DNA of 47,449 nucleotides, taken from a virus (Duplodnaviria; Heunggongvirae; Uroviricota; Caudoviricetes). The stretch is taken from the IMG/VR virus record IMGVR_UViG_2585427767_000006; one strand, written 5' to 3'. Positions 8,357 to 46,028 of this stretch are shown here, one piece after another (positions within the stretch are counted from its first letter, which is position 1; each line of letters starts with the position of its first letter). Below the pieces are notes generated by a model. That model saw nothing but the letters and a program-made list of their open reading frames with translations, had not been told where the DNA came from and made no database searches. A program made the position numbers and the translations under genes.

Positions 8357-8695
8357 TTATTTACATGCATTAACACTATCAGCAAAAATTTTTGGCGTTA
8401 ATGCTGGTACACGTTCATAAAGAGTAAAACTACTGCCATTTCCTGCTTTTTTGATATCAAGCACAACATCATATCCCCCCATAGCCTGTGGAACTAAAAG
8501 GCTTACCCCATTCTCAATAGGAAGGGATGTTATAGGTGTTCCATTACCAGCCCATTGTCTGGATATGCAGCCTGACAATTCATCAATATTTTTTAATGAA
8601 TTACCTTCCATTACAGGTTTTCCGGATTTTACGTAATCCAAAGATTTACATCCTGTTAAGGCAATAATCGTGCAGAATAAAATCGTTTTGTTCAT
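8357..8695 (-). CDS. Lipoprotein (moron inserted between tail genes I and J)
   Basis: Signal peptide MNKTILFCTIIALTGC with lipobox LTGC; AT-rich island 8296..8767; lambda has no gene between I and J. ORF-track start 8707 is TTG; ATG at 8695. Confidence 0.6.
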   Translation of the reverse strand: MNKTILFCTIIALTGCKSLDYVKSGKPVMEGNSLKNIDELSGCISRQWAGNGTPITSLPIENGVSLLVPQAMGGYDVVLDIKKAGNGSSFTLYERVPALTPKIFADSVNACK

Positions 8696-30162: not shown

Positions 30163-30218
30163 GGAGTTTACTCACATCTGACAAAATCAATATAAACAGC
30201 CCCTCCGGAGAGGGGCTG
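30132..30218. terminator. Tandem hairpins (likely bidirectional terminators) after the plus-strand cargo ORF
   Basis: 12-bp perfect stem TCCTTATGGACT/AGTCCATAAGGA (30132..30165, spanning the stop codon) and 9-bp stem CAGCCCCTC/GAGGGGCTG with 4-nt loop (30197..30218). Confidence 0.5.
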
Positions 30219-30609
30219 GAGAGTGGCGCTATGTGCCATTGCATGGTGCCGGGTGCCTCCCGGTGAATTCAGTACCAGCACCTGAATCCGCGATTATCCC
30301 ATATACCTACTCGCTGATTGCCCCTCCGCACAGGGGGATTCACCATGCCAGTTTCTTTTAACAAACTCCCCGCAAACCAGACAACAATCAACCGCCTGAA
30401 TTGTGAAGTATTTAAAAATTTCTCCCGCTAACTGATACCCGGCTAACAGTCTGGCGTTTTCTTTTTCAGCAACGGGAAAGCAACAACCACCACACCCGCC
30501 ACCAGCACACCGTCAGCCAGCACTGACATTATCCGGCTGCTGCAATGCCATTCACAAAAACAGTAAGCAATCACTTTTTACCGTAACCGGTGATAATCCA
30601 GATATGTAT

Positions 30610-31073: not shown

Positions 31074-31150
31074 TGGCGCGCTGTACTGGATTCGAACCAG
31101 TGACCGATTGCTTAGAAGGCAATTGCTCTGTCCGGCTGAGCTAACAACGC
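31074..31150 (-). tRNA. tRNA-Arg (anticodon UCU)
   Basis: Minus-strand 77-nt sequence GCGTTGTTAGCTCAGCCGGACAGAGCAATTGCCTTCTAAGCAATCGGTCACTGGTTCGAATCCAGTACAGCGCGCCA folds as a cloverleaf with anticodon loop CUUCUAA and T-loop TTCGAAT. Confidence 0.9.
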
Positions 31151-31250: not shown

Positions 31251-31326
31251 TGGTGGCCCTTGCTGGATTTGAACCAGCGACCTGGCGATTATGAGTCGCT
31301 CGCTCTCACCACTGAGCTAAAGGGCC
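31251..31326 (-). tRNA. tRNA-Ile2 (anticodon CAU, ileX/ileZ-like; could alternatively be Met)
   Basis: Minus-strand 76-nt sequence GGCCCTTTAGCTCAGTGGTGAGAGCGAGCGACTCATAATCGCCAGGTCGCTGGTTCAAATCCAGCAAGGGCCACCA; 7-bp acceptor stem, anticodon CAU, very close to E. coli ileX. Confidence 0.85.
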
Positions 31327-40959: not shown

Positions 40960-41112
40960 ATGGATACTATCGAGCTTGGCAACAACGAATCTCTGGTATG
41001 CGGCGTGTTTCCCAACCAGGACGGCACGTTTACCGCGATGACATATACCAGAAGCAAAACGTTTAAAACTGAAGCTGGCGCGCGTCGCTGGTTAACCAGA
41101 AACACTGACTGA
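40960..41112 (+). CDS. YdfA-like small protein (DUF1391-like)
   Basis: 50-aa product MDTIELGNNESLVCGVFPNQDGTFTAMTYTRSKTFKTEAGARRWL with SD GAGGT, first gene after the repressor as ydfA is after dicA in Qin. Confidence 0.55.
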   Translation: MDTIELGNNESLVCGVFPNQDGTFTAMTYTRSKTFKTEAGARRWLTRNTD

Positions 41113-41123
41113 TGAGGTTGACG

Positions 41124-41462
41124 ATGGAATTTAAAGATTTACCTCCTTCAATCCAGGAGATTGCAGCACACACACTTCGTCATCGTCTGAACGAACTTGA
41201 ATTGAAATCGGTAACAAAAAAAGACACTGATAATATGGCTCGTAATGTGCGCGATGCGTTTACTGGGCTGTTTTCAGATACAGCTTTAAATATCCATGGC
41301 ACAGAGGATACAGCAAAACAATTTGCAGAAAAAGAAGTGGAAGATCCCAGTTCAAAGAGCCAGAAACAGCCAAACAACCATGAAATTAACGAACTGCTTC
41401 TGGCAACAGGCTTCATAAATATTAACGAATATGAACGCCGTAAAAAAATGTTATCTGATTAA
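41124..41462 (+). CDS. Hypothetical protein (112 aa) of the early-left operon
   Basis: ATG 41124 preceded by SD GAGGT; ORF-track start 41112 is also in frame; no recognisable motif. Confidence 0.45.
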   Translation: MEFKDLPPSIQEIAAHTLRHRLNELELKSVTKKDTDNMARNVRDAFTGLFSDTALNIHGTEDTAKQFAEKEVEDPSSKSQKQPNNHEINELLLATGFININEYERRKKMLSD

Positions 41463-41645
41463 TCCATCAAGATATCTTTTTAGCATCAGCGTTTCTACGT
41501 TATTAAAACCATCAGATTTTAACATAGCTTCGATTCGCTGATTTAAATTGCCAACTAACTGTTGATACTGAGTAGATGGAAGCATGTGTACCAGCTCCTT
41601 GAGAACACAATAACATGCACCAAGTTTTAACTCCTGCTCTGACAT
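41451..41645 (-). CDS. Hypothetical small protein (64 aa), antisense to the early-left operon
   Basis: ATG 41645 with strong SD GGAGGA 5 nt upstream; overlaps the 3' end of the convergent plus-strand gene by 12 nt. Confidence 0.35.
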   Translation of the reverse strand: MSEQELKLGACYCVLKELVHMLPSTQYQQLVGNLNQRIEAMLKSDGFNNVETLMLKRYLDGLIR

Positions 41646-41984
41646 TTTATCCTCCATTGAGGTTACTGGTTGAGAATGGAGACCTCTCGTGACAGCGTGT
41701 GGTCGTGCGCCGGACACGGATAAGAATCCGGCACTGACAGTTTACTGAAAGGATATTTCCCTGAAAAGTCAGACCATAACGCGAAAGCGCACGGCGAGGT
41801 AGCTGGTTCATAGATAGCCTGTCGTTAAATTTTCGTCGACCGTGCGCTTCCGGTTGTGGCAATCCGCGAAATGGCGCGGCGGTAAGTATGGCGGGGGTAT
41901 TCCTTCCCCCGTTGAGGACACCGGGTTGTCAGGTTGACCATACGCTTAAGTGACAACCCCGCTGCAACGCCCTCTGTTATCAAT

Positions 41985-42037
41985 TTTCTGGTGACTTTTG
42001 GCGGTATCAGTTTTACTCCGTGACTGCTCTGCCGCCC
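41985..42037 (+). ncRNA. dicF: DicF small RNA homologue (53 nt), with intrinsic terminator U-tract to ~42042
   Basis: Sequence TTTCTGGTGACTTTTGGCGGTATCAGTTTTACTCCGTGACTGCTCTGCCGCCC followed by TTTTT matches the E. coli Qin DicF sRNA as I recall it (one mismatch). Confidence 0.75.
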
Positions 42038-42325
42038 TTTTTAAAGTGAATTTTGTGATGCGGTGAATGCGGCTGAGCGCACGCGGAACAGTTAAAACCA
42101 AAAACAGTGTTATGGGTGGATTCTCTGTATCCGGCGTTAATTGTTAACTGGTTAACGTCACCTGGAGGCACCAGGCACCGCATCAACAAAGTTCACTTCG
42201 GTGATGAAAGGTAAGAGAAAATGTTGAATGTAGCTATTGAAAACCAGAACGGGTGGAATTATAGTGCACCTGCACCTCATAAAACGGGTGCCGGGCGTGG
42301 AAACCCGAAATCATTCACGGCGCAT

Positions 42326-42348
42326 AACCGCGCTCAGGCGGTTTTTTT
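42326..42348 (+). terminator. Intrinsic terminator between DicF and the Rha gene
   Basis: Stem AACCGC/GCGGTT, loop GCTCAG, followed by TTTTTTT. Confidence 0.6.
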
Positions 42349-42517
42349 ATGCGTTAAGCACAGCCACATTCGCATTATGGTGGGGCGTGCAGGGCAGCCG
42401 CAAGGCTGGCCGGGTTCCGTGATGACCGGTATTTCCACCCCTGTACGTCTCACCACCCTTATGGTCGTGGAAAACCTCGGTGGTGAGTTAATCAAATTCA
42501 TCGCGGAGGCTGCCATC

Positions 42518-43075
42518 ATGGCTACTATCCTTACCCTTTCTCACCCTGACGTAACCATCGAAAATGGTCGCGCTGTCACTACGTCTGTTGCGATCGCCGA
42601 GTTCTTTGGCAAACGCCACGAACGAGTGTTGGATAAAATTCGCAATCTGGACTGTTCAGCAAAATTCACTGAGCACAATTTTGTGTCGAGCGAATACACC
42701 GACTCAACCGGGCGCAAACTCCCAATGTACCAAATCACCAAAAACGGCTTCGTTTTCCTGGTGATGGGGTTCACAGGTAAAAAAGCCGCAACTTTCAAAG
42801 AAGCCTACATCGCTGAGTTCGATCGCATGGAGGAAGAACTGCGCCAGAATAACGCCCCGTCTCCCGACAAAATGATTCACGGGGACGGACGCACCCTGGT
42901 TATCCGTCTCGACGAACACGGCAATATCAAATTCACTGAAACCGTTCCTGACGGCGCAATGGTCTGCACCCTGGATACCTTCCGGTTTTATCTGGAGAAA
43001 CAAGGATGGACTCTTGTAAACCGGAGCGCAATTAAAAATATGACTGTGGAGCAATTGCTAAAAATTCATTGTTGA
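42518..43075 (+). CDS. Rha-family phage regulatory protein
   Basis: Rha signatures VAIAEFFGKRHERVLDKIRNL and MYQITKNGFVFLVMGFTGKKAATFKEAYIAEFDRME; start at ATG 42518 with SD GGAGG; the upstream part of ORF-track 42221..43075 contains a terminator. Confidence 0.75.
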   Translation: MATILTLSHPDVTIENGRAVTTSVAIAEFFGKRHERVLDKIRNLDCSAKFTEHNFVSSEYTDSTGRKLPMYQITKNGFVFLVMGFTGKKAATFKEAYIAEFDRMEEELRQNNAPSPDKMIHGDGRTLVIRLDEHGNIKFTETVPDGAMVCTLDTFRFYLEKQGWTLVNRSAIKNMTVEQLLKIHC

Positions 43076-43085
43076 GGACGCGATA

Positions 43086-43274
43086 ATGGAAACGTCACTA
43101 CCAAACGTTAATACGTCTGACGGGTGCTTTAATATTGGTGTTCTGCTCAGTAACAGGGATTTCACCGAGGATGCAATCAATATGAGAAAATATGAACCCT
43201 ACCTGCTGAATGACAATTCCATACTCTCCAGAATTGCCCTTCTTAAACTCGGTATTTTCGGAGAGTGGCGATGA
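43086..43274 (+). CDS. dicB: Cell division inhibitor DicB homologue
   Basis: 62-aa product METSLPNVNTSDGCFNIGVLLSNRDFTEDAINMRK... resembles Qin DicB over the N-terminal 35 aa as I recall it; SD GAGGA upstream. Confidence 0.75.
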   Translation: METSLPNVNTSDGCFNIGVLLSNRDFTEDAINMRKYEPYLLNDNSILSRIALLKLGIFGEWR

Positions 43275-43553: not shown

Positions 43554-46028
43554 ATGAGTAAAGTCTTTATTTGCGCTGCTATTCCTGATGAACAGGCCAT
43601 AAAAGAAGATAGCGCTGTTGCGGTGGCCACTGCCATTGAAGCTGGTGATGAGCGTCGCGCACGCGCAAAATTTCATTGGCAATTTCTGGAGCAATTCCCT
43701 GCAGCTCAGGACTGCGCTTATAAATTTATTGTCTGTGAGGATAAACCCGGCATACCCCGCCCTGCCCTCGATTCCTGGGATGCTGAATATATGCAGGAAA
43801 ACCGCTGGGATGAGGAGTCTGCTTCCTTTGTCCCGGTTGAGACTGAATCAGATCCGATGAACGTCACTTTTGACAAGCTGGTCCCTGAAGTACAGAACGC
43901 TGTCATGGTTAAGTTCGACACATGTGAAAACATCACCGTTGATATGGTTATTAGCGCACAGGAATTGTTGCAGGAAGACATGGCAACATTCGACGGACAT
44001 ATCGTTGAAGCGTTGATGAAAATGCCAGAAGTTAACGCCATGTATCCGGAGCTTAAGCTGCATGCCATCGGGTGGGTTAAGCATAAATGTAAGCCTGGTG
44101 CCAAATGGCCCGAAATTCAGGCAGAGATGCGCATCTGGAAAAAACGTCGCGAAGGTGAACGCAAGGAAACCGGAAAATACACGTCTGTTGTTGATCTCGC
44201 CCGCGCCAGAGTCAATCAACAGAACACTGAAAACTCAGCAGGAAAAATCAACCCAGTCACTGCCGCCATTTGTCGCGAATACAAGCAGACATGGAAAACG
44301 CTGGATGAAGAACTGGCCTACGCTCTCTGGCCTGGCGATATTGATACCGGAAACATTGACGGCAGCATCCATCGCTGGGCAAAAAATGAAGTTATCGACA
44401 AAGATCGCGAAGACTGGAAGCGCATTTCCGCATCAATGCGCAAACAACCCGATGCCGTTCGCTACGACCGTCAGACTATTTTTGGCCTTGTCCGTGAGCG
44501 TCCGATCGACATTCACAAAGATCCCGTAGCACTGAACAAATACATCACTGAATACCTGACTACCAAGGGCGTGTTTGAAGATGACGAAGGAACAAATCAG
44601 GGCACAGCTGGTACTCTCCCGTCACCAGTACCAGAAACTGATGCAGTGGAAACGGCAATGCCGGACAACGAAAAAACCGAATGCGAAGTGGAAGACGAAC
44701 CATCTGTAGAGCGTGAGGGACCGTTCTACTTCCTTTTCACCGATAAGGACGGCGAAAAATACGGTCGCGCAAACAAACTTTCTGGTCTGGAAAAAGCACT
44801 GGCCCTGGGAGCTACGGAAATCACAAAAGAGGAATACTTCGCACGTAAAAACGGTACATACTCAGGTTCACAACAAAATACTGGTGCATCTGACACGACC
44901 GCACAACCAGAGCCAGTAAAAGTTACCGCTGACGAAGTAAACAAAATTATGCAGGCAGCCAATATCAGCCAGCCTGACGCCGATGAACTGCTTGCAGTAT
45001 CACGTGGTGAATTTGTTGAAGGGATTAGCGACCCGAATGATCCGAAATGGGTTAAGGGGAACCAGACCCGCGATTCTGTGAACCAGAACCAGCAAGAAAC
45101 GGAACAGAACGACCAGAAAGCGGAACAAAACAGCCCAAATGCGTTACAAAACGAGCCAGAAACGAAACAGCCTGAATCAGTGGCGCAACAGGAAGTGGAA
45201 AAAGTCTGCACCGCCTGCGGTCAGACCGGCGGCGGCAACTGCCCTGATTGTGGCGCGGTAATGGGCGACGCAACATACCAGGAAACATTCGATGAAGAGT
45301 ATCAGCCTGAAGTTCAGGAAGATGATCCGGAGGAAATGGAAGGCGCTGAACATCCACACAAGGAGAACACTGGCGGCAATCAGCATCACGATAGCGATAA
45401 TGAAACTGGCGAGACGGCAGATCACTCAATTAAGGTGAACGGTCATCAAGAAATCACATCCACCAGCAGAATGTGGCACCACATGATGATCGACCTTGAA
45501 ACCATGGGAAAAAATCCCGATGCCCCGCTTATCTCAATAGGTGCAATATTTTTCGATCCGCAAACCGGAGATATGGGGCCGGAATTTAGTAAGACCATCG
45601 ATATGGATACTGCTGGCGGAGTCATTGATCGTGGCACCATTAAATGGTGGCTTAAGCAATCACGGGAGGCGCAATCTGCCATTCTGACCGATGAAATCCC
45701 GTTAGATGATGCACTGCTGCAATTGCGGGAATTTATCGACGAAAACTCCGGCGAATTTTTTGTTCAGGTCTGGGGAAATGGAGCCAACTTCGACAACACG
45801 ATTTTGCGCCGTTCATACGAACGGCAGGGGATCCCCTGCCCGTGGCGTTACTACAACGATCGCGATGTACGCACAATCGTTGAGCTGGGAAAAGCCATGG
45901 ACTTCGATGCTAGGGCGGCTATTCCATTCGAAGGTGAGCGCCACAATGCGCTGGATGATGCCCGTTACCAGGCAAAATACGTTTCAACTATCTGGCAAAA
46001 ACTGATCCCGAATCAGGCTGATTTTTAA
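43554..46028 (+). CDS. Large exonuclease-like protein with zinc ribbon and C-terminal DEDDh 3'-5' exonuclease domain (annotated in related prophages as exodeoxyribonuclease VIII-like)
   Basis: 824 aa; CTACGQTGGGNCPDCG zinc ribbon; C-terminal MMIDLETMG (Exo I), WGNGANFD (Exo II), HNALDDARYQ (Exo III) motifs; SD GAGGT. Confidence 0.7.
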   Translation: MSKVFICAAIPDEQAIKEDSAVAVATAIEAGDERRARAKFHWQFLEQFPAAQDCAYKFIVCEDKPGIPRPALDSWDAEYMQENRWDEESASFVPVETESDPMNVTFDKLVPEVQNAVMVKFDTCENITVDMVISAQELLQEDMATFDGHIVEALMKMPEVNAMYPELKLHAIGWVKHKCKPGAKWPEIQAEMRIWKKRREGERKETGKYTSVVDLARARVNQQNTENSAGKINPVTAAICREYKQTWKTLDEELAYALWPGDIDTGNIDGSIHRWAKNEVIDKDREDWKRISASMRKQPDAVRYDRQTIFGLVRERPIDIHKDPVALNKYITEYLTTKGVFEDDEGTNQGTAGTLPSPVPETDAVETAMPDNEKTECEVEDEPSVEREGPFYFLFTDKDGEKYGRANKLSGLEKALALGATEITKEEYFARKNGTYSGSQQNTGASDTTAQPEPVKVTADEVNKIMQAANISQPDADELLAVSRGEFVEGISDPNDPKWVKGNQTRDSVNQNQQETEQNDQKAEQNSPNALQNEPETKQPESVAQQEVEKVCTACGQTGGGNCPDCGAVMGDATYQETFDEEYQPEVQEDDPEEMEGAEHPHKENTGGNQHHDSDNETGETADHSIKVNGHQEITSTSRMWHHMMIDLETMGKNPDAPLISIGAIFFDPQTGDMGPEFSKTIDMDTAGGVIDRGTIKWWLKQSREAQSAILTDEIPLDDALLQLREFIDENSGEFFVQVWGNGANFDNTILRRSYERQGIPCPWRYYNDRDVRTIVELGKAMDFDARAAIPFEGERHNALDDARYQAKYVSTIWQKLIPNQADF

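What the first reader, a model, noticed from the sequence alone, without database searches (positions are those of the whole stretch)
41985..42348. DicF sRNA homologue followed by a second terminator
A 53-nt stretch ending in an intrinsic terminator is nearly identical to my recollection of the Qin DicF sRNA (an ftsZ-targeting regulator). About 290 nt downstream a second strong terminator precedes the next gene. The ORF track reads through this region as protein (42221 onward), which is almost certainly wrong.
Basis: partly seen in the sequence, partly recalled or inferred. Interest (0 to 1): 0.5.

Follow-up and report, generated by a model that had tools for sequence, protein, structure and literature searches.

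The report
DicF sRNA plus inserted IsrK–C4 switch
The stretch holds a textbook copy of the prophage small RNA DicF, and the "second terminator" is the end of another known small RNA (IsrK) in a P4-type RNA switch that controls an antirepressor-like gene; all parts belong to known families, so the finding is largely ordinary.

Summary
Window 41985-42037 is DicF: 52/53 identical to E. coli K-12 dicF, Rfam 75.8 bits (threshold 48), with a stem-loop plus U5. A real terminator lies 289 nt downstream.

That terminator is not a spare one. It ends IsrK (42272-42348, Rfam 67.7 bits), which has its own promoter-like site. IsrK is followed by a C4/CI-type antisense RNA (42373-42460, 81.9 bits) and a Rha-family gene whose conserved start is ATG 42518.

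This ~870-bp cassette is inserted between dicF and dicB of a Qin-like operon in a prophage next to ompW.

In 36 distinct relatives, three short blocks co-vary: one in IsrK, the C4 loop, and the block over the Rha Shine-Dalgarno. There are 13 loop specificities. This is the P4 seqA/CI/seqC and P1 c4 logic.

- The 99 N-terminal codons show no protein-like evolution (pN/pS 0.8; no codon periodicity).
- Yet the frame is kept free of stops, while the other two frames gain them.
- The anatomy matches P4 eta/kil, where the long ORF is translated only from upstream transcripts.

All parts belong to known families.

The parts
41700..41984 (+). Untranslated leader upstream of DicF, homologous to the ydfC-dicF leader of K-12 Qin. 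DicF is presumably cut from it by RNase E (inferred from K-12).
   Evidence: About 97% or better identity to K-12 Qin and phage Tritos. Processing of K-12 DicF is described in PMC5069750. No promoter-like site was found on the + strand in 41700-41984.
41985..42037 (+). DicF sRNA gene (53-nt form). The terminator U-run follows at 42038-42042.
   Evidence: Rfam RF00039 75.8 bits, threshold 48. 52/53 identical to K-12 dicF, the only difference being nt 12 G->T. Stem-loop -15.9 kcal/mol, z -2.45.
42038..42195 (+). dicF-dicB spacer of Qin type. Homology to K-12 and Tritos ends at 42195 (...ACAAAGTTCA).
   Evidence: Alignment. RefSeq calls 42107-42190 a DicB pseudogene fragment in some genomes.
42196..43059 (+). 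Inserted IsrK-C4-Rha cassette (~870 bp), bounded by imperfect direct repeats ACAAAGTTCA (42186-42195) and TAAAAATTCA (43059-43068). The Rha stop codon lies in the resumed dicB leader.
   Evidence: Left junction, right junction, coordinates. In K-12 and Tritos, dicB follows DicF directly.
42221..43075 (+). Long ORF (284 aa), annotated in RefSeq as a Rha family protein. It has the layout of P4 eta: it starts 51 nt upstream of the IsrK 5' end and runs through the promoter, IsrK, C4 and Rha.
   Evidence: Pfam Phage_ASH aa 14-109, Phage_pRha aa 120-205. Frame open in 33/37 relatives. No codon periodicity and pN/pS 0.8 for codons 1-99. Same anatomy in P4, Stx, ST64B and P88.
42237..42265 (+). Promoter-like site for IsrK (TTGAAA, 17 nt, TATAGT). 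It ends 6 nt before the IsrK 5' end and corresponds in position to P4 PLE.
   Evidence: 10/12 consensus match. -35/-10 hexamers lie at the same position in eight divergent cassettes, P4 included.
42272..42348 (+). IsrK sRNA (P4 seqA-leader homologue). Its intrinsic terminator (stem 42326-42343, T7 42342-42348) is the finding's 'second terminator'. The seqA-like specificity block is 42308-42320.
   Evidence: Rfam RF01394 67.7 bits, threshold 50. Terminator. The block co-varies with the C4 loop.
42373..42460 (+). C4/CI-type antisense RNA, with the antisense loop within 42412-42427 (GGGTTCCGTGATGACC). The orf45-like ATG at 42377 lies in its 5' stem and is in frame with Rha.
   Evidence: Rfam RF01695 81.9 bits, threshold 45. 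Fold -47.3 kcal/mol, z -4.37. 12 of 27 pairs show compensatory changes. 13 loop variants.
42492..42509 (+). seqC/a2b2-like target block complementary to the C4 loop. It overlaps the Rha Shine-Dalgarno GGAGG (42505-42509).
   Evidence: Duplex of loop and block -21.9 kcal/mol. Cognate -15.4 against non-cognate -6.7 kcal/mol over 17 triplets. GGAGG plus ATG conserved in all 37 relatives.
42518..43075 (+). Rha-family (antirepressor-like) gene, 185 aa. This is the conserved protein-coding part, nested in the long ORF.
   Evidence: Pfam Phage_pRha 1e-30. Third-position bias 89/61/147 and pN/pS 0.28. Homologues in unrelated phages align from residue 1-21.
43086..43274 (+). dicB (62 aa), the gene that follows DicF directly in K-12 Qin. 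Here it is displaced by the cassette.
   Evidence: Pfam DicB 1.3e-32, alignment to K-12, RefSeq annotation.

Best explanation
Two known RNA systems sit side by side in the early-left (dicB-type) operon of a lambdoid prophage integrated next to ompW.

(A) 41985-42037 is a canonical DicF gene. By homology with K-12 Qin, it is released from the operon transcript by RNase E at its 5' end and by its own Rho-independent terminator at its 3' end. Its 3' part (nt 13-53) is identical to K-12, so it should still repress ftsZ. The single change (nt 12) lies in the 5' arm, which is used for xylR.

(B) Between dicF and dicB, an ~870-bp cassette of the P4-immunity / Gifsy-1 isrK type has been inserted.
- An internal promoter-like site (42237-42265) would make IsrK, which ends at the 'second terminator'.
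- Read-through transcripts would carry the C4/CI-like RNA and the Rha gene.
- The C4 loop pairs with a block that overlaps the Rha Shine-Dalgarno, which would switch translation off.
- IsrK carries a same-sense copy of that block. It can therefore sequester the C4 loop in cis or in trans, which would switch translation on. This activating effect was shown for IsrK on anrP in Gifsy-1.
- The three blocks co-evolve, giving many mutually exclusive specificities, as in P1/P7 and P4 immunity.

(C) The long ORF from ATG 42221 starts upstream of the internal promoter. It is therefore absent from IsrK-promoter transcripts and present only on transcripts coming from the operon promoter past DicF. By analogy with P4 eta/kil, ribosomes reading it would melt the IsrK terminator and C4. 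That would make operon transcription insensitive to the cassette and allow expression of Rha, dicB, ydfD, the exonuclease, xis and int.

What is shown: family memberships, anatomy, three-way covariation, nucleotide-level rather than peptide-level constraint, and stop avoidance in the frame.
What is inferred: expression, processing, the direction of regulation, the role of translation, and the antirepressor activity of Rha.

Sub-confidences: DicF identity 0.97; terminator is the IsrK terminator within an IsrK-C4 cassette 0.95; C4 loop occludes the Rha RBS with IsrK as decoy 0.7; eta-like translated frame 0.5.
For: DicF:
- Rfam 75.8 bits; 52/53 identity and about 490 bp of Qin homology; fold.
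- K-12 biology from PMC5069750.

Cassette:
- Rfam isrK 67.7 and C4 81.9 bits.
- The same two families hit P4's own immunity region (C4 8420-8507, isrK 8615-8692) and Gifsy-1 (isrK, C4 and c4-a1b1).
- Barquist 2013 equates IsrK with seqA and C4 with CI (PMC3632133).
- Junctions.
- Promoter-like site at the IsrK 5' end, conserved in position in 8 divergent cassettes.
- C4 structure has 12/27 compensatory pairs.

Pairing logic:
- 13 loop variants, each with matching IsrK and pre-SD blocks.
- Cognate against non-cognate duplex: -15.4 vs -6.7 kcal/mol (loop and pre-SD block) and -12.6 vs -6.9 (loop and IsrK). Window loop and pre-SD block -21.9 kcal/mol.
- Gifsy-1 experiments: IsrK in trans activates anrP translation; a processed STnc1160 RNA is seen (PMC4825925).

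Rha start:
- GGAGG plus ATG invariant, including in L052, which lacks the cassette.
- Coding signature only from 42518 onward. Unrelated Rha proteins align from residue 1-21.

Long ORF:
- 0 stops in 33/37 relatives and 0 polymorphic stop sites, against 5/5 and 4/8 in the other frames. A 99-codon open frame has probability 0.013 from composition alone.
- Net-3 indel compensation in L081/L083.
- Identical anatomy in P4, where ATGs at -75/-72/-69 give 197-199 aa (eta) and the nested start lies 55 nt after CI.
- P4 eta/kil mechanism as summarised in PMC10111431.
Against: - No expression data of any kind. DicF, IsrK and C4 transcripts, the IsrK promoter and all three candidate start codons are computational.
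- The operon upstream differs from Qin: a minus-strand 64-aa ORF (41451-41645) lies between the upstream genes and the DicF leader. Whether DicF is still transcribed is untested.
- The frame-openness statistics treat polymorphic stop sites as independent and assume comparable stop susceptibility in the three frames. The sequences are related and mostly come from one genomic context.
- Three relatives carry 1-nt insertions in T-runs that break the long frame (L023, L045, L061). These are either sequencing errors or evidence that the frame is dispensable.
- Gifsy-1, the only experimentally studied lambdoid case, has no eta-like fusion. Its orf45 frame is closed just 5' of its ATG and ends in ATGA.
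- The Shine-Dalgarno of ATG 42221 is weak (AAGAG/AAGG).
- The primary P4 eta/kil paper could not be read. The mechanism is cited second-hand.
Confidence: 0.8

Rival explanations
1. One reading: DicF followed by a spare or back-up terminator, and the ORF from 42221 to about 42517 is a pure annotation artefact that is never translated. On this view its openness is an accident of a conserved, fairly G+C-rich RNA region.
For: The region is covered by a promoter-like site, two Rfam RNAs and a terminator. There is no codon periodicity and pN/pS is 0.8. 'Synonymous' sites are 2-3 times more conserved than in Rha. Three relatives have frameshifts. Pfam Phage_ASH also matches the obsolete P4 'cI protein' ORF over the CI RNA. 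Gifsy-1 has no long ORF.
Against: The terminator belongs to IsrK, not to DicF. There are no polymorphic stop sites in the frame, against 9-12 in each other frame across the region. The hypervariable blocks create stops in frames 1 and 2 but never in frame 0. L081/L083 show +1/-4 indel compensation. Long ORFs that start upstream of the promoter recur in P4, Stx1, Stx2, ST64B and P88 with unrelated 5' parts. P4 eta is reported to be translated (PMC10111431).
Confidence: 0.2
2. The database view: 42221-43075 encodes a genuine two-domain protein, with an N-terminal 'Ash' protein domain that has its own biochemical function fused to Rha. On this view the RNA-family hits are secondary.
For: RefSeq annotates the 284-aa protein. 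Pfam Phage_ASH matches at 2.1e-16. Many database proteins are named 'ash family protein'. The frame is conserved open.
Against: Codons 1-99 show no third-position bias and pN/pS about 0.8. In Citrobacter L006 most residues of codons 1-17 differ from the window, and the conserved stretch coincides with the -10 hexamer region (my reading of the sequences). The most variable 'residues' are exactly the three mutually complementary RNA blocks. The Pfam family also hits P4's obsolete cI ORF; the P4 immunity factor is described as the CI RNA (PMC10111431, PMC3632133). Rha proteins in other phages lack the extension. The AlphaFold model gave no structure for residues 1-110, but the whole model was poor (mean pLDDT 40), so this point is inconclusive.
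Confidence: 0.07
3. The DicF copy is a silent relic. Because the upstream operon is rearranged (truncated ydf genes, an opposing 64-aa gene), no transcript reaches it, and only the cassette with its own promoter is active.
For: RefSeq marks the ORF after the DUF1391 gene as a pseudogene and shows a minus-strand gene at window 41451-41645. No promoter-like site lies directly upstream of DicF.
Against: DicF and about 490 bp around it are kept at roughly 97% or better identity to Qin. The repressor-like gene, the DUF1391 gene and downstream dicB-ydfD-exonuclease-xis-int are intact and co-oriented. The DicF slot is retained upstream of the cassette in most of the 86 related loci.
Confidence: 0.12

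Closest known systems
DicF of the E. coli K-12 Qin prophage (dicBF operon: ydfABC-dicF-dicB-ydfD)
   Same: 52/53 identical sRNA. The same ~285-nt leader and ~155-nt trailer. The same terminator hairpin. The same operon orientation downstream of a DicA-like repressor gene. dicB and a ydfD-like gene lie downstream.
   Different: nt 12 is T instead of G, in the 5' arm. dicB does not follow directly, because an ~870-bp IsrK-C4-Rha cassette is inserted at the dicB leader. The upstream genes differ (no ydfB/ydfC; an opposing 64-aa ORF). The prophage looks complete and sits at ompW.
Gifsy-1 isrK-orf45(STnc1160)-anrP locus of Salmonella (Hershko-Shalev et al. 2016, PMC4825925)
   Same: The same Rfam families in the same order and spacing. 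IsrK has its own promoter and a leaky terminator. There is an ATG about 105 nt into the transcript inside the C4-like RNA. The regulated gene starts 55-58 nt after C4. The loop complement lies over the SD of the regulated gene.
   Different: In Gifsy-1, orf45 is a separate 45-codon ORF closed on both sides (TGA before, ATGA overlap after). The cassette follows the Q gene. In the window, the equivalent ATG is in frame with Rha and with a further 52 upstream codons that begin before the promoter, and the cassette sits in the early-left operon. I did not compare AnrP with the window Rha protein directly.
Satellite phage P4 immunity region (PLE-seqA-cI-seqC with nested eta/kil ORFs)
   Same: Rfam isrK and C4 both hit P4 itself. 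A long ORF starts 69-75 nt upstream of the leader 5' end (51 nt in the window) and spans the promoter, seqA and CI. The nested gene is in the same frame and starts 55 nt after CI (58 nt in the window). Pfam Phage_ASH covers the same stretch in both.
   Different: The nested product is Kil (65 aa) in P4 and a 185-aa Rha protein here. P4 uses the Rho-dependent terminator timm; no equivalent was looked for here. The host element is a satellite rather than a lambdoid prophage. The sequences are far apart: only 45 nt of P4 matched in the blastn search.
P1/P7 immI (c4 antisense RNA with a1/b1 and a2/b2 targets, icd-ant)
   Same: An antisense RNA is processed from the same transcript as its target. 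Target copies lie upstream and downstream, the downstream one at an RBS. The output is an antirepressor. Specificity differs between related phages through a few loop bases. This description of P1/P7 is from my own knowledge, apart from the Rfam family names C4 and c4-a1b1.
   Different: One visible recognition loop here rather than two (a', b'). There is no icd-like intervening gene; the RBS that is hit is that of the Rha gene itself.

Membership tests
DicF sRNA (Rfam RF00039) | Sequence and structure match to the family covariance model above the curated threshold | tested here: met
   75.8 bits against 48, full-length 1-52, E 4.7e-15.
DicF sRNA (Rfam RF00039) | Near-identity to the experimentally defined K-12 dicF | tested here: met
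   52/53 identical; the only mismatch is nt 12 G->T.
DicF sRNA (Rfam RF00039) | 3' stem-loop followed by a U-run (Rho-independent 3' end of the 53-nt form) | tested here: met
   Stem-loop -15.9 kcal/mol, z -2.45, then UUUUU. Literature.
DicF sRNA (Rfam RF00039) | Lies in the untranslated stretch of a dicB-type prophage operon, upstream of dicB | tested here: met
   Qin-type leader and trailer. dicB at 43086-43274, but separated from DicF by the inserted cassette.
DicF sRNA (Rfam RF00039) | ftsZ-pairing region intact | tested here: met
   Nt 13-53 are identical to K-12. The 3' end pairs with ftsZ according to PMC5069750. My own whole-molecule duplex energies did not discriminate: -37 kcal/mol against -33 +/- 4 for shuffles.
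DicF sRNA (Rfam RF00039) | Expressed, processed by RNase E, binds Hfq, causes filamentation | not testable with these tools
   Needs Northern blot or RNA-seq and an overexpression assay.
IsrK / P4 seqA leader (Rfam RF01394) | Match to the covariance model above threshold | tested here: met
   67.7 bits against 50, full-length 1-77. The same model hits P4 (60.8) and Gifsy-1 (79.3).
IsrK / P4 seqA leader (Rfam RF01394) | Own promoter at the 5' end and an intrinsic terminator at the 3' end | tested here: met
   TTGAAA-17-TATAGT ends 6 nt before the 5' end; terminator stem 42326-42343 plus T7. Hexamers are positionally conserved in 8 cassettes. Computational evidence only.
IsrK / P4 seqA leader (Rfam RF01394) | Carries a sequence complementary to the loop of the downstream C4/CI RNA | tested here: met
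   Block 42308-42320. It co-varies with the loop: cognate -12.6 against non-cognate -6.9 kcal/mol.
C4 / CI antisense RNA (Rfam RF01695) | Match to the covariance model above threshold | tested here: met
   81.9 bits against 45, full-length 1-87.
C4 / CI antisense RNA (Rfam RF01695) | Long closing stem with two hairpins, supported by compensatory changes | tested here: met
   MFE -47.3 kcal/mol, z -4.37. 27 pairs, 12 with double compensatory changes across 15 diverse sequences including P4.
C4 / CI antisense RNA (Rfam RF01695) | Loop complementary to a site at the RBS of the downstream regulated gene | tested here: met
   The window duplex covers G42505-G42508 of the GGAGG SD, -21.9 kcal/mol. 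13 loop variants, cognate -15.4 against -6.7 kcal/mol.
C4 / CI antisense RNA (Rfam RF01695) | Processed from the precursor to a stable ~80-nt RNA (by RNase P and other nucleases, from my memory of the P1/P4 literature) | not testable with these tools
   Needs RNA end-mapping.
P4 eta/kil-type nested ORF over an immunity RNA module | Long ORF begins upstream of the constitutive internal promoter and spans the seqA-like, CI-like and seqC-like elements | tested here: met
   ATG 42221 is 51 nt upstream of the IsrK 5' end. The same holds in P4 (-75/-72/-69), Stx1/2, ST64B, P88 and Citrobacter.
P4 eta/kil-type nested ORF over an immunity RNA module | Shorter gene nested in the same frame, with its own RBS just after the CI-like RNA | tested here: met
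   Rha ATG 42518 is in frame and 58 nt after C4. P4 kil ATG is 55 nt after CI.
P4 eta/kil-type nested ORF over an immunity RNA module | Translation of the long ORF from upstream transcripts prevents termination | not testable with these tools
   Only indirect support: the frame is kept stop-free without peptide constraint.
P4 eta/kil-type nested ORF over an immunity RNA module | Rho-dependent terminator (timm) inside the nested gene | not tested
   I did not look for one.
Pfam Phage_ASH (PF10554) as a protein domain | HMM match above the gathering score | tested here: met
   2.1e-16, 60.7 bits against 26, aa 14-109.
Pfam Phage_ASH (PF10554) as a protein domain | Evolves under amino-acid-level purifying selection, like a folded domain | tested here: not met
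   Variable columns 48/48/47 by codon position and pN/pS 0.79-0.81, against 0.28 for Rha. The structure model is uninformative.
Rha family regulatory protein (Pfam PF09669) | Phage_pRha domain near the N-terminus of a ~150-250-aa phage protein | tested here: met
   1e-30, aa 120-205 of the long ORF, which is aa 21-106 from ATG 42518. Homologues are named Rha or antirepressor in many phages.

The most novel reading that the evidence does not exclude
The 'Ash' part of the ORF may not be a protein domain at all. It could be a reading frame kept open only so that ribosomes coming from the operon promoter, past DicF, can run through the IsrK terminator and the C4 RNA. That would be a P4 eta-like 'ribosome transit' anti-termination device, generalised to lambdoid prophages. 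It would make the inserted immunity cassette transparent to early-left transcription (dicB, exonuclease, xis, int), while transcripts from the internal promoter stay under RNA control. If so, the Pfam Ash family and hundreds of 'ash family protein' or 'antirepressor' annotations describe an RNA switch read in one frame. The cassette family, with at least 13 co-varying specificities in a single genomic slot, would be a diversifying RNA immunity system in E. coli prophages.
Probability: 0.4. Interest if true: 0.5.

Novelty: new member of a known kind. Interest (0 to 1): 0.3.

Why it matters
DicF itself adds nothing new: it is a near-identical copy of a well-studied sRNA, present in most E. coli genomes (some part of the 861-bp query matched 4752 of 5426 complete genomes).

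The practical value is mostly in annotation:
- In near-identical RefSeq genomes, none of the three RNAs (DicF, IsrK, C4) is annotated.
- The whole cassette is there read as one 284-aa 'Rha family' protein.
- Pfam's 'Ash' domain coincides with the IsrK-C4 RNA module.

Recognising the module explains the second terminator and fixes the conserved Rha start at 42518. It also shows that a P4-type RNA switch gates an antirepressor-like gene in the middle of the dicBF cell-division-inhibitor operon.

The comparative data could be used directly for experiments on RNA-based immunity specificity and on translation-dependent read-through in lambdoid prophages. The relevant results are the three-way covariation with 13 specificities and a frame kept open without peptide constraint. 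Both ideas have clear precedents in P4, P1 and Gifsy-1.

Tried and rejected
(1) Whole-molecule RNAduplex of DicF against ftsZ -80..+40. Result: -37.1 kcal/mol (window) and -38.5 (K-12), against -33.1 +/- 4.0 for shuffled DicF. The test does not discriminate, so I relied on sequence identity of nt 13-53 plus the literature.

(2) AlphaFold2 of the 284-aa ORF with an 18-sequence alignment. Mean pLDDT was 39.9, and the known Rha domain was also poor. It is uninformative about whether the Ash part folds. No fold search was run.

(3) A possible fourth specificity site, TTCGGTGATGA at 42197-42207, one mismatch from the C4 loop. It is constant across all loop variants, so I rejected it.

(4) My first count of loci 'without DicF' (55 of 86) was an artefact of a <=6-mismatch filter. 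Those loci mostly carry diverged DicF-like sRNAs in the same slot. One regex script timed out.

(5) My first coordinates for the Rha ATG (42519) and the orf45-like ATG (42378) were off by one, which made one search fail. The correct values are 42518 and 42377.

(6) The scan of one-genome-per-species contigs gave only 6 loci. Diversity came from viral contigs.

(7) The primary P4 papers (Forti 1999, Sabbattini 1995) are not held, and one broad literature search returned noise. The P4 eta/kil mechanism is cited from the summary in PMC10111431.

(8) The protein search with the 99 N-terminal codons returned mostly partial 'ash family protein' fragments and added little.
Full report
THE OBSERVATION

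The 53 bases at 41985-42037 are DicF. Rfam's DicF model matches 41986-42037 end to end at 75.8 bits (gathering score 48, E 4.7e-15). A direct alignment to the annotated dicF of E. coli K-12 MG1655 shows one difference in 53 positions, G->T at nt 12. Homology extends well beyond the sRNA: about 285 nt upstream and 155 nt downstream (41700-42195) align to the K-12 Qin prophage and to phage Tritos, where the feature is annotated as DicF, at roughly 97% or better. The RNA folds into the expected stem-loop followed by UUUUU (-15.9 kcal/mol, z = -2.45). This matches the published Rho-independent 3' end of the 53-nt form (PMC5069750).

The second terminator is also real. Its stem is 42326-42343 and its T7 run is 42342-42348. 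It begins 289 nt after the DicF 3' end. The ORF 42221-43075 exists, and RefSeq annotates it as a 284-aa 'Rha family phage regulatory protein' in genomes that are 99.9% identical over this stretch.

WHAT THE SECOND TERMINATOR IS

The same Rfam scan gives two further full-length matches next to DicF: isrK (RF01394) at 42272-42348 (67.7 bits, threshold 50) and C4 antisense RNA (RF01695) at 42373-42460 (81.9 bits, threshold 45). The 'second terminator' is the 3' end of IsrK. A sigma-70-like site (TTGAAA, 17 nt, TATAGT; 42237-42265) ends 6 nt before the IsrK 5' end.

C4 folds into a long closing stem with two hairpins (-47.3 kcal/mol, z = -4.37). In 15 diverse homologues, 12 of its 27 pairs show compensatory double changes.

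Downstream, ATG 42518 is preceded by GGAGG (42505-42509) and opens a 185-aa protein with a Phage_pRha domain (Pfam 1e-30).

AN INSERTED CASSETTE

In K-12 and Tritos, dicB follows DicF after about 175 nt. In the window, Qin homology stops at 42195 (...ACAAAGTTCA) and resumes at about 43060 (TAAAAATTCATTGTTGAGG...), just before dicB at 43086-43274. About 870 bp carrying IsrK, C4 and Rha have therefore been inserted into the dicB leader. The insert is flanked by an imperfect 9-10-nt direct repeat, and the Rha stop codon lies in the resumed dicB leader.

The surrounding element is a lambdoid prophage next to ompW. Its late genes, Q and two tRNAs are on the minus strand. A DicA-like repressor gene, DicF, the cassette, dicB, a ydfD-like gene, an 824-aa exonuclease, xis and int are on the plus strand.

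WHICH KNOWN SYSTEM THIS IS

The isrK and C4 models both hit satellite phage P4's own immunity region (C4 at 8420-8507, isrK at 8615-8692, minus strand). They also hit the Gifsy-1 isrK locus, where Rfam adds 'c4-a1b1', the family of C4 target sites. Barquist et al. state that IsrK and C4 are the structural homologues of P4 seqA and CI RNA, and that some lambdoid prophages carry such IsrK-C4 systems (PMC3632133).

Hershko-Shalev et al. studied the Gifsy-1 case (PMC4825925). The isrK promoter drives IsrK. Some transcripts read through its terminator into orf45 and the antirepressor-like anrP. The long form is translationally silent, and IsrK supplied in trans activates it. A stable processed RNA (STnc1160) arises from the orf45 region, and the authors compare it with P4 CI.

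In Gifsy-1, Rfam C4 covers that orf45 region, and anrP starts 55 nt after it. In the window, Rha starts 58 nt after C4.

THREE-WAY COVARIATION

I collected 86 loci encoding Rha homologues (65-100% amino-acid identity), 80 from viral contigs and 6 from species-representative genomes. They give 37 distinct sequences for the 300 nt upstream of the Rha start.

The alignment is highly conserved except for three short blocks: 42308-42320 in IsrK, the C4 hairpin loop (about 42414-42424), and 42492-42504 immediately 5' of and overlapping the Shine-Dalgarno. The blocks change together. In each of 13 loop variants, the reverse complement of the loop appears both in IsrK and in the pre-SD block. Two examples:
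- Window: loop TTCCGTGATGA, IsrK ATCATTCACGG, pre-SD TTCATCGCGGAGG.
- L036: loop TTTCGGTAGTCA, IsrK GATGACTACTG, pre-SD CTGACTATCGAGG.

Over 17 distinct triplets:
- Loop and pre-SD block: cognate -15.4 kcal/mol, non-cognate -6.7.
- Loop and IsrK block: cognate -12.6, non-cognate -6.9.
- Cognate partners were almost always the best binders.

In the window, the duplex of the loop with the pre-SD block is -21.9 kcal/mol and includes G42505-G42508 of the SD.

This is the arrangement of P4 (seqA, seqB in CI, seqC) and of P1/P7 c4 (a1b1, a'b', a2b2): one antisense loop with two same-sense targets, the downstream one at a ribosome-binding site. Because IsrK and the RBS block have the same sense, IsrK cannot pair with the RBS. 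It can only compete for the C4 loop. That fits the activating effect of IsrK seen in Gifsy-1. The direction of regulation in this prophage is inferred, not shown.

IS THE ORF FROM 42221 WRONG?

Evidence that codons 1-99 are not an ordinary protein:
- They cover a promoter-like site, an sRNA with its terminator, and a second structured RNA.
- Variable alignment columns by codon position are 48/48/47 with the three blocks excluded. In Rha they are 89/61/147.
- Pooled pN/pS against the window is 0.79-0.81, against 0.28 for Rha. 'Synonymous' divergence is only 0.10-0.16, against 0.31 in Rha. The constraint is therefore on nucleotides, not residues.
- GGAGG plus ATG 42518 is invariant in all 37 sequences. 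That includes L052, whose upstream region is unrelated and closed by a stop 11 codons before the ATG.
- Rha proteins of unrelated phages (P22 ORF201, Bacillus, Paenibacillus, Lactobacillus and Pseudomonas phages) align from residue 1-21 of the 185-aa form.
- Pfam's Phage_ASH family matches residues 14-109. It also matches the obsolete 'cI gene product (AA 1-137)' ORF of P4, which lies over the CI RNA.

Evidence that the frame is nevertheless maintained:
- It is open for 97-100 codons upstream of the Rha ATG in 33 of 37 distinct sequences, with an ATG kept at -97 to -99.
- The exceptions are L052 and three sequences with a single extra T in a T-run (L023, L045, L061).
- With frames anchored on the alignment, frame 0 has no polymorphic stop site. 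The other two frames have 5 and 5 in 42221-42376, and 4 and 8 in 42377-42517. Many of these lie inside the hypervariable blocks.
- From base composition alone, a 99-codon open frame has probability 0.013.
- L081/L083 carry a +1 and a -4 indel about 45 nt apart, which restore the frame.
- Eight divergent cassettes all have a long ORF that starts upstream of the IsrK promoter and runs through both RNAs: the window, Citrobacter L006, L081, Stx2 WGPS2, Stx1_699, ST64B, P88 and P4. Their 5' parts are unrelated, and in the Stx and ST64B phages the ORF starts 230-360 nt upstream.
- In P4, ATGs at -75/-72/-69 give 197-199 aa, and a nested start lies 55 nt after CI. This is eta with kil. ST64B Sb41 is annotated as similar to 'P4 ORF199'.

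According to the summary of Forti et al. 1999 in PMC10111431:
- The constitutive promoter is internal to eta.
- Its transcript is terminated through the CI and seqA interactions.
- Kil can be translated on read-through.
- Full-length Eta is translated only from an upstream promoter.
- Eta translation prevents termination.

The window has the same geometry. A frame that must stay open for ribosome passage, but whose peptide is free to vary, would explain both sets of results. I could not read the primary paper.

The analogy has a limit. In Gifsy-1 the orf45 frame is closed by TGA just before its ATG and ends in the ATGA overlap with anrP, so there is no long ORF there. I put the eta-like reading at about 0.5.

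DicF FUNCTION

Balasubramanian et al. report the following (PMC5069750):
- The DicF 5' end comes from RNase E processing of the operon transcript.
- The 53-nt form ends at the terminator, and a 72-nt form arises by RNase III.
- The 3' end pairs with ftsZ and pykA, while the 5' end pairs with xylR.

The window's only change (nt 12) is in the 5' arm, and nt 13-53 are identical to K-12. Repression of ftsZ should therefore be retained, while an effect on xylR pairing is possible. My own whole-molecule duplex calculation did not discriminate from shuffles.

Whether DicF is transcribed here is untested. The genes upstream differ from Qin, and a minus-strand 64-aa ORF (41451-41645) lies before the leader.

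NOVELTY AND VERDICT

DicF, IsrK/seqA, C4/CI and Rha are all known families. IsrK-C4 modules in lambdoid prophages have been noted before (PMC3632133), and one has been dissected experimentally (PMC4825925). This junction is common: 318 of 5426 complete E. coli genomes hold at least 80% of the 861-bp query spanning DicF and the cassette.

What this locus adds:
- A specific arrangement, with the cassette inserted between dicF and dicB.
- A clear comparative demonstration of three-way co-variation with 13 specificities.
- Evidence that the 'Ash' reading frame is kept open without peptide constraint.

It also exposes an annotation gap: in the near-identical RefSeq records none of the three RNAs is annotated, and the cassette is read as one protein.

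I rate it a new member of known kinds, with low to moderate interest.

Noticed in passing
Related loci L004-L089, about 480-540 nt upstream of the Rha ATG (the position of window 41985-42037): The DicF slot holds a series of DicF-like sRNA genes on one terminator scaffold (GGCGG...CCGCCC plus TTTTTAAAG), but with different 5' arms and sometimes different loops. One class (e.g. L037) has a new 5' arm and compensatory GGTGG/CCACC stem changes. Another (e.g. L004) has the loop TTTAATTGCTGG instead of the ACUCCG-containing loop. Rfam recognises DicF only in some classes (71.5, 61.1, 54.7 and 49.3 bits) and in none of the other representatives tested (L004, L065, L076, L036, L048, L051, L084, L083). 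The slot looks like a variable-seed sRNA position.
   Followed up: partly
L052:2367-2456: One Rha homologue (88% identical) has no IsrK or C4 upstream. Instead Rfam finds sRNA-Xcc1 (RF02221, 67.4 bits) ending about 45 nt before the same GGAGG plus ATG. A different structured RNA occupies the C4 position.
   Followed up: no
window 42186-42195 and 43059-43068: The ~870-bp cassette is flanked by an imperfect direct repeat (ACAAAGTTCA / TAAAAATTCA) that matches the single CAAAATTCA of the K-12 dicB leader. This may be a trace of the insertion or recombination event. The Rha stop codon (43073-43075) lies in dicB-leader sequence.
   Followed up: partly
window 42197-42207 (+): TTCGGTGATGA, one mismatch from the C4 loop TTCCGTGATGA, sits just 5' of the long ORF's ATG. 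It is constant across relatives with other loop specificities, so it is not a co-varying fourth site. Its origin is unexplained.
   Followed up: yes
window, whole: The 11-mer TCATCACGGAA (complement of the C4 loop) with up to 2 mismatches occurs 33 times, against 13.7 +/- 3.8 expected from shuffles, mostly on the + strand between 2.5 and 29 kb. This is probably a composition or codon effect, but I did not examine it.
   Followed up: no
window 30188-30377 (-), 31077-31150 (-), 31254-31326 (-): Rfam finds STnc100 (132 bits) and two tRNA genes on the minus strand. By comparison with NZ_CP142915 these are tRNA-Arg and tRNA-Ile, lying downstream of the Q antiterminator and DNA-methyltransferase genes, as in many lambdoid and Stx-type prophages.
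   Followed up: no
window 42107-42190 (+): RefSeq/PGAP annotates this part of the dicF-dicB spacer as an incomplete 'cell division inhibition protein DicB' pseudogene in several genomes. The homologous K-12 stretch is unannotated, and the real dicB is at 43086-43274.
   Followed up: no
window 41451-41645 (-) and 41112-41462 (+): A minus-strand 64-aa ORF (RefSeq hypothetical protein WP_001295058.1) faces the operon just before the DicF leader. The plus-strand ORF before it is marked as a truncated pseudogene in RefSeq. The upstream half of the dicBF-type operon is therefore rearranged relative to Qin (no ydfB/ydfC).
   Followed up: no
window 43554-46028 (+): The 824-aa 'exonuclease' has a C-terminal Rv2179c-like 3'-5' exoribonuclease domain (Pfam 2.4e-66) after a long acidic, low-complexity N-terminal part. 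It occupies the position of the gene annotated 'exonuclease VIII' in phage Tritos.
   Followed up: no
NZ_CP196120.1 (L001) and NZ_CP142915.1 (L096), regions homologous to window 41985-42460: In RefSeq genomes 99.9% identical to the window, none of DicF, IsrK or C4 is annotated as an RNA gene, although K-12 carries a dicF ncRNA feature.
   Followed up: yes
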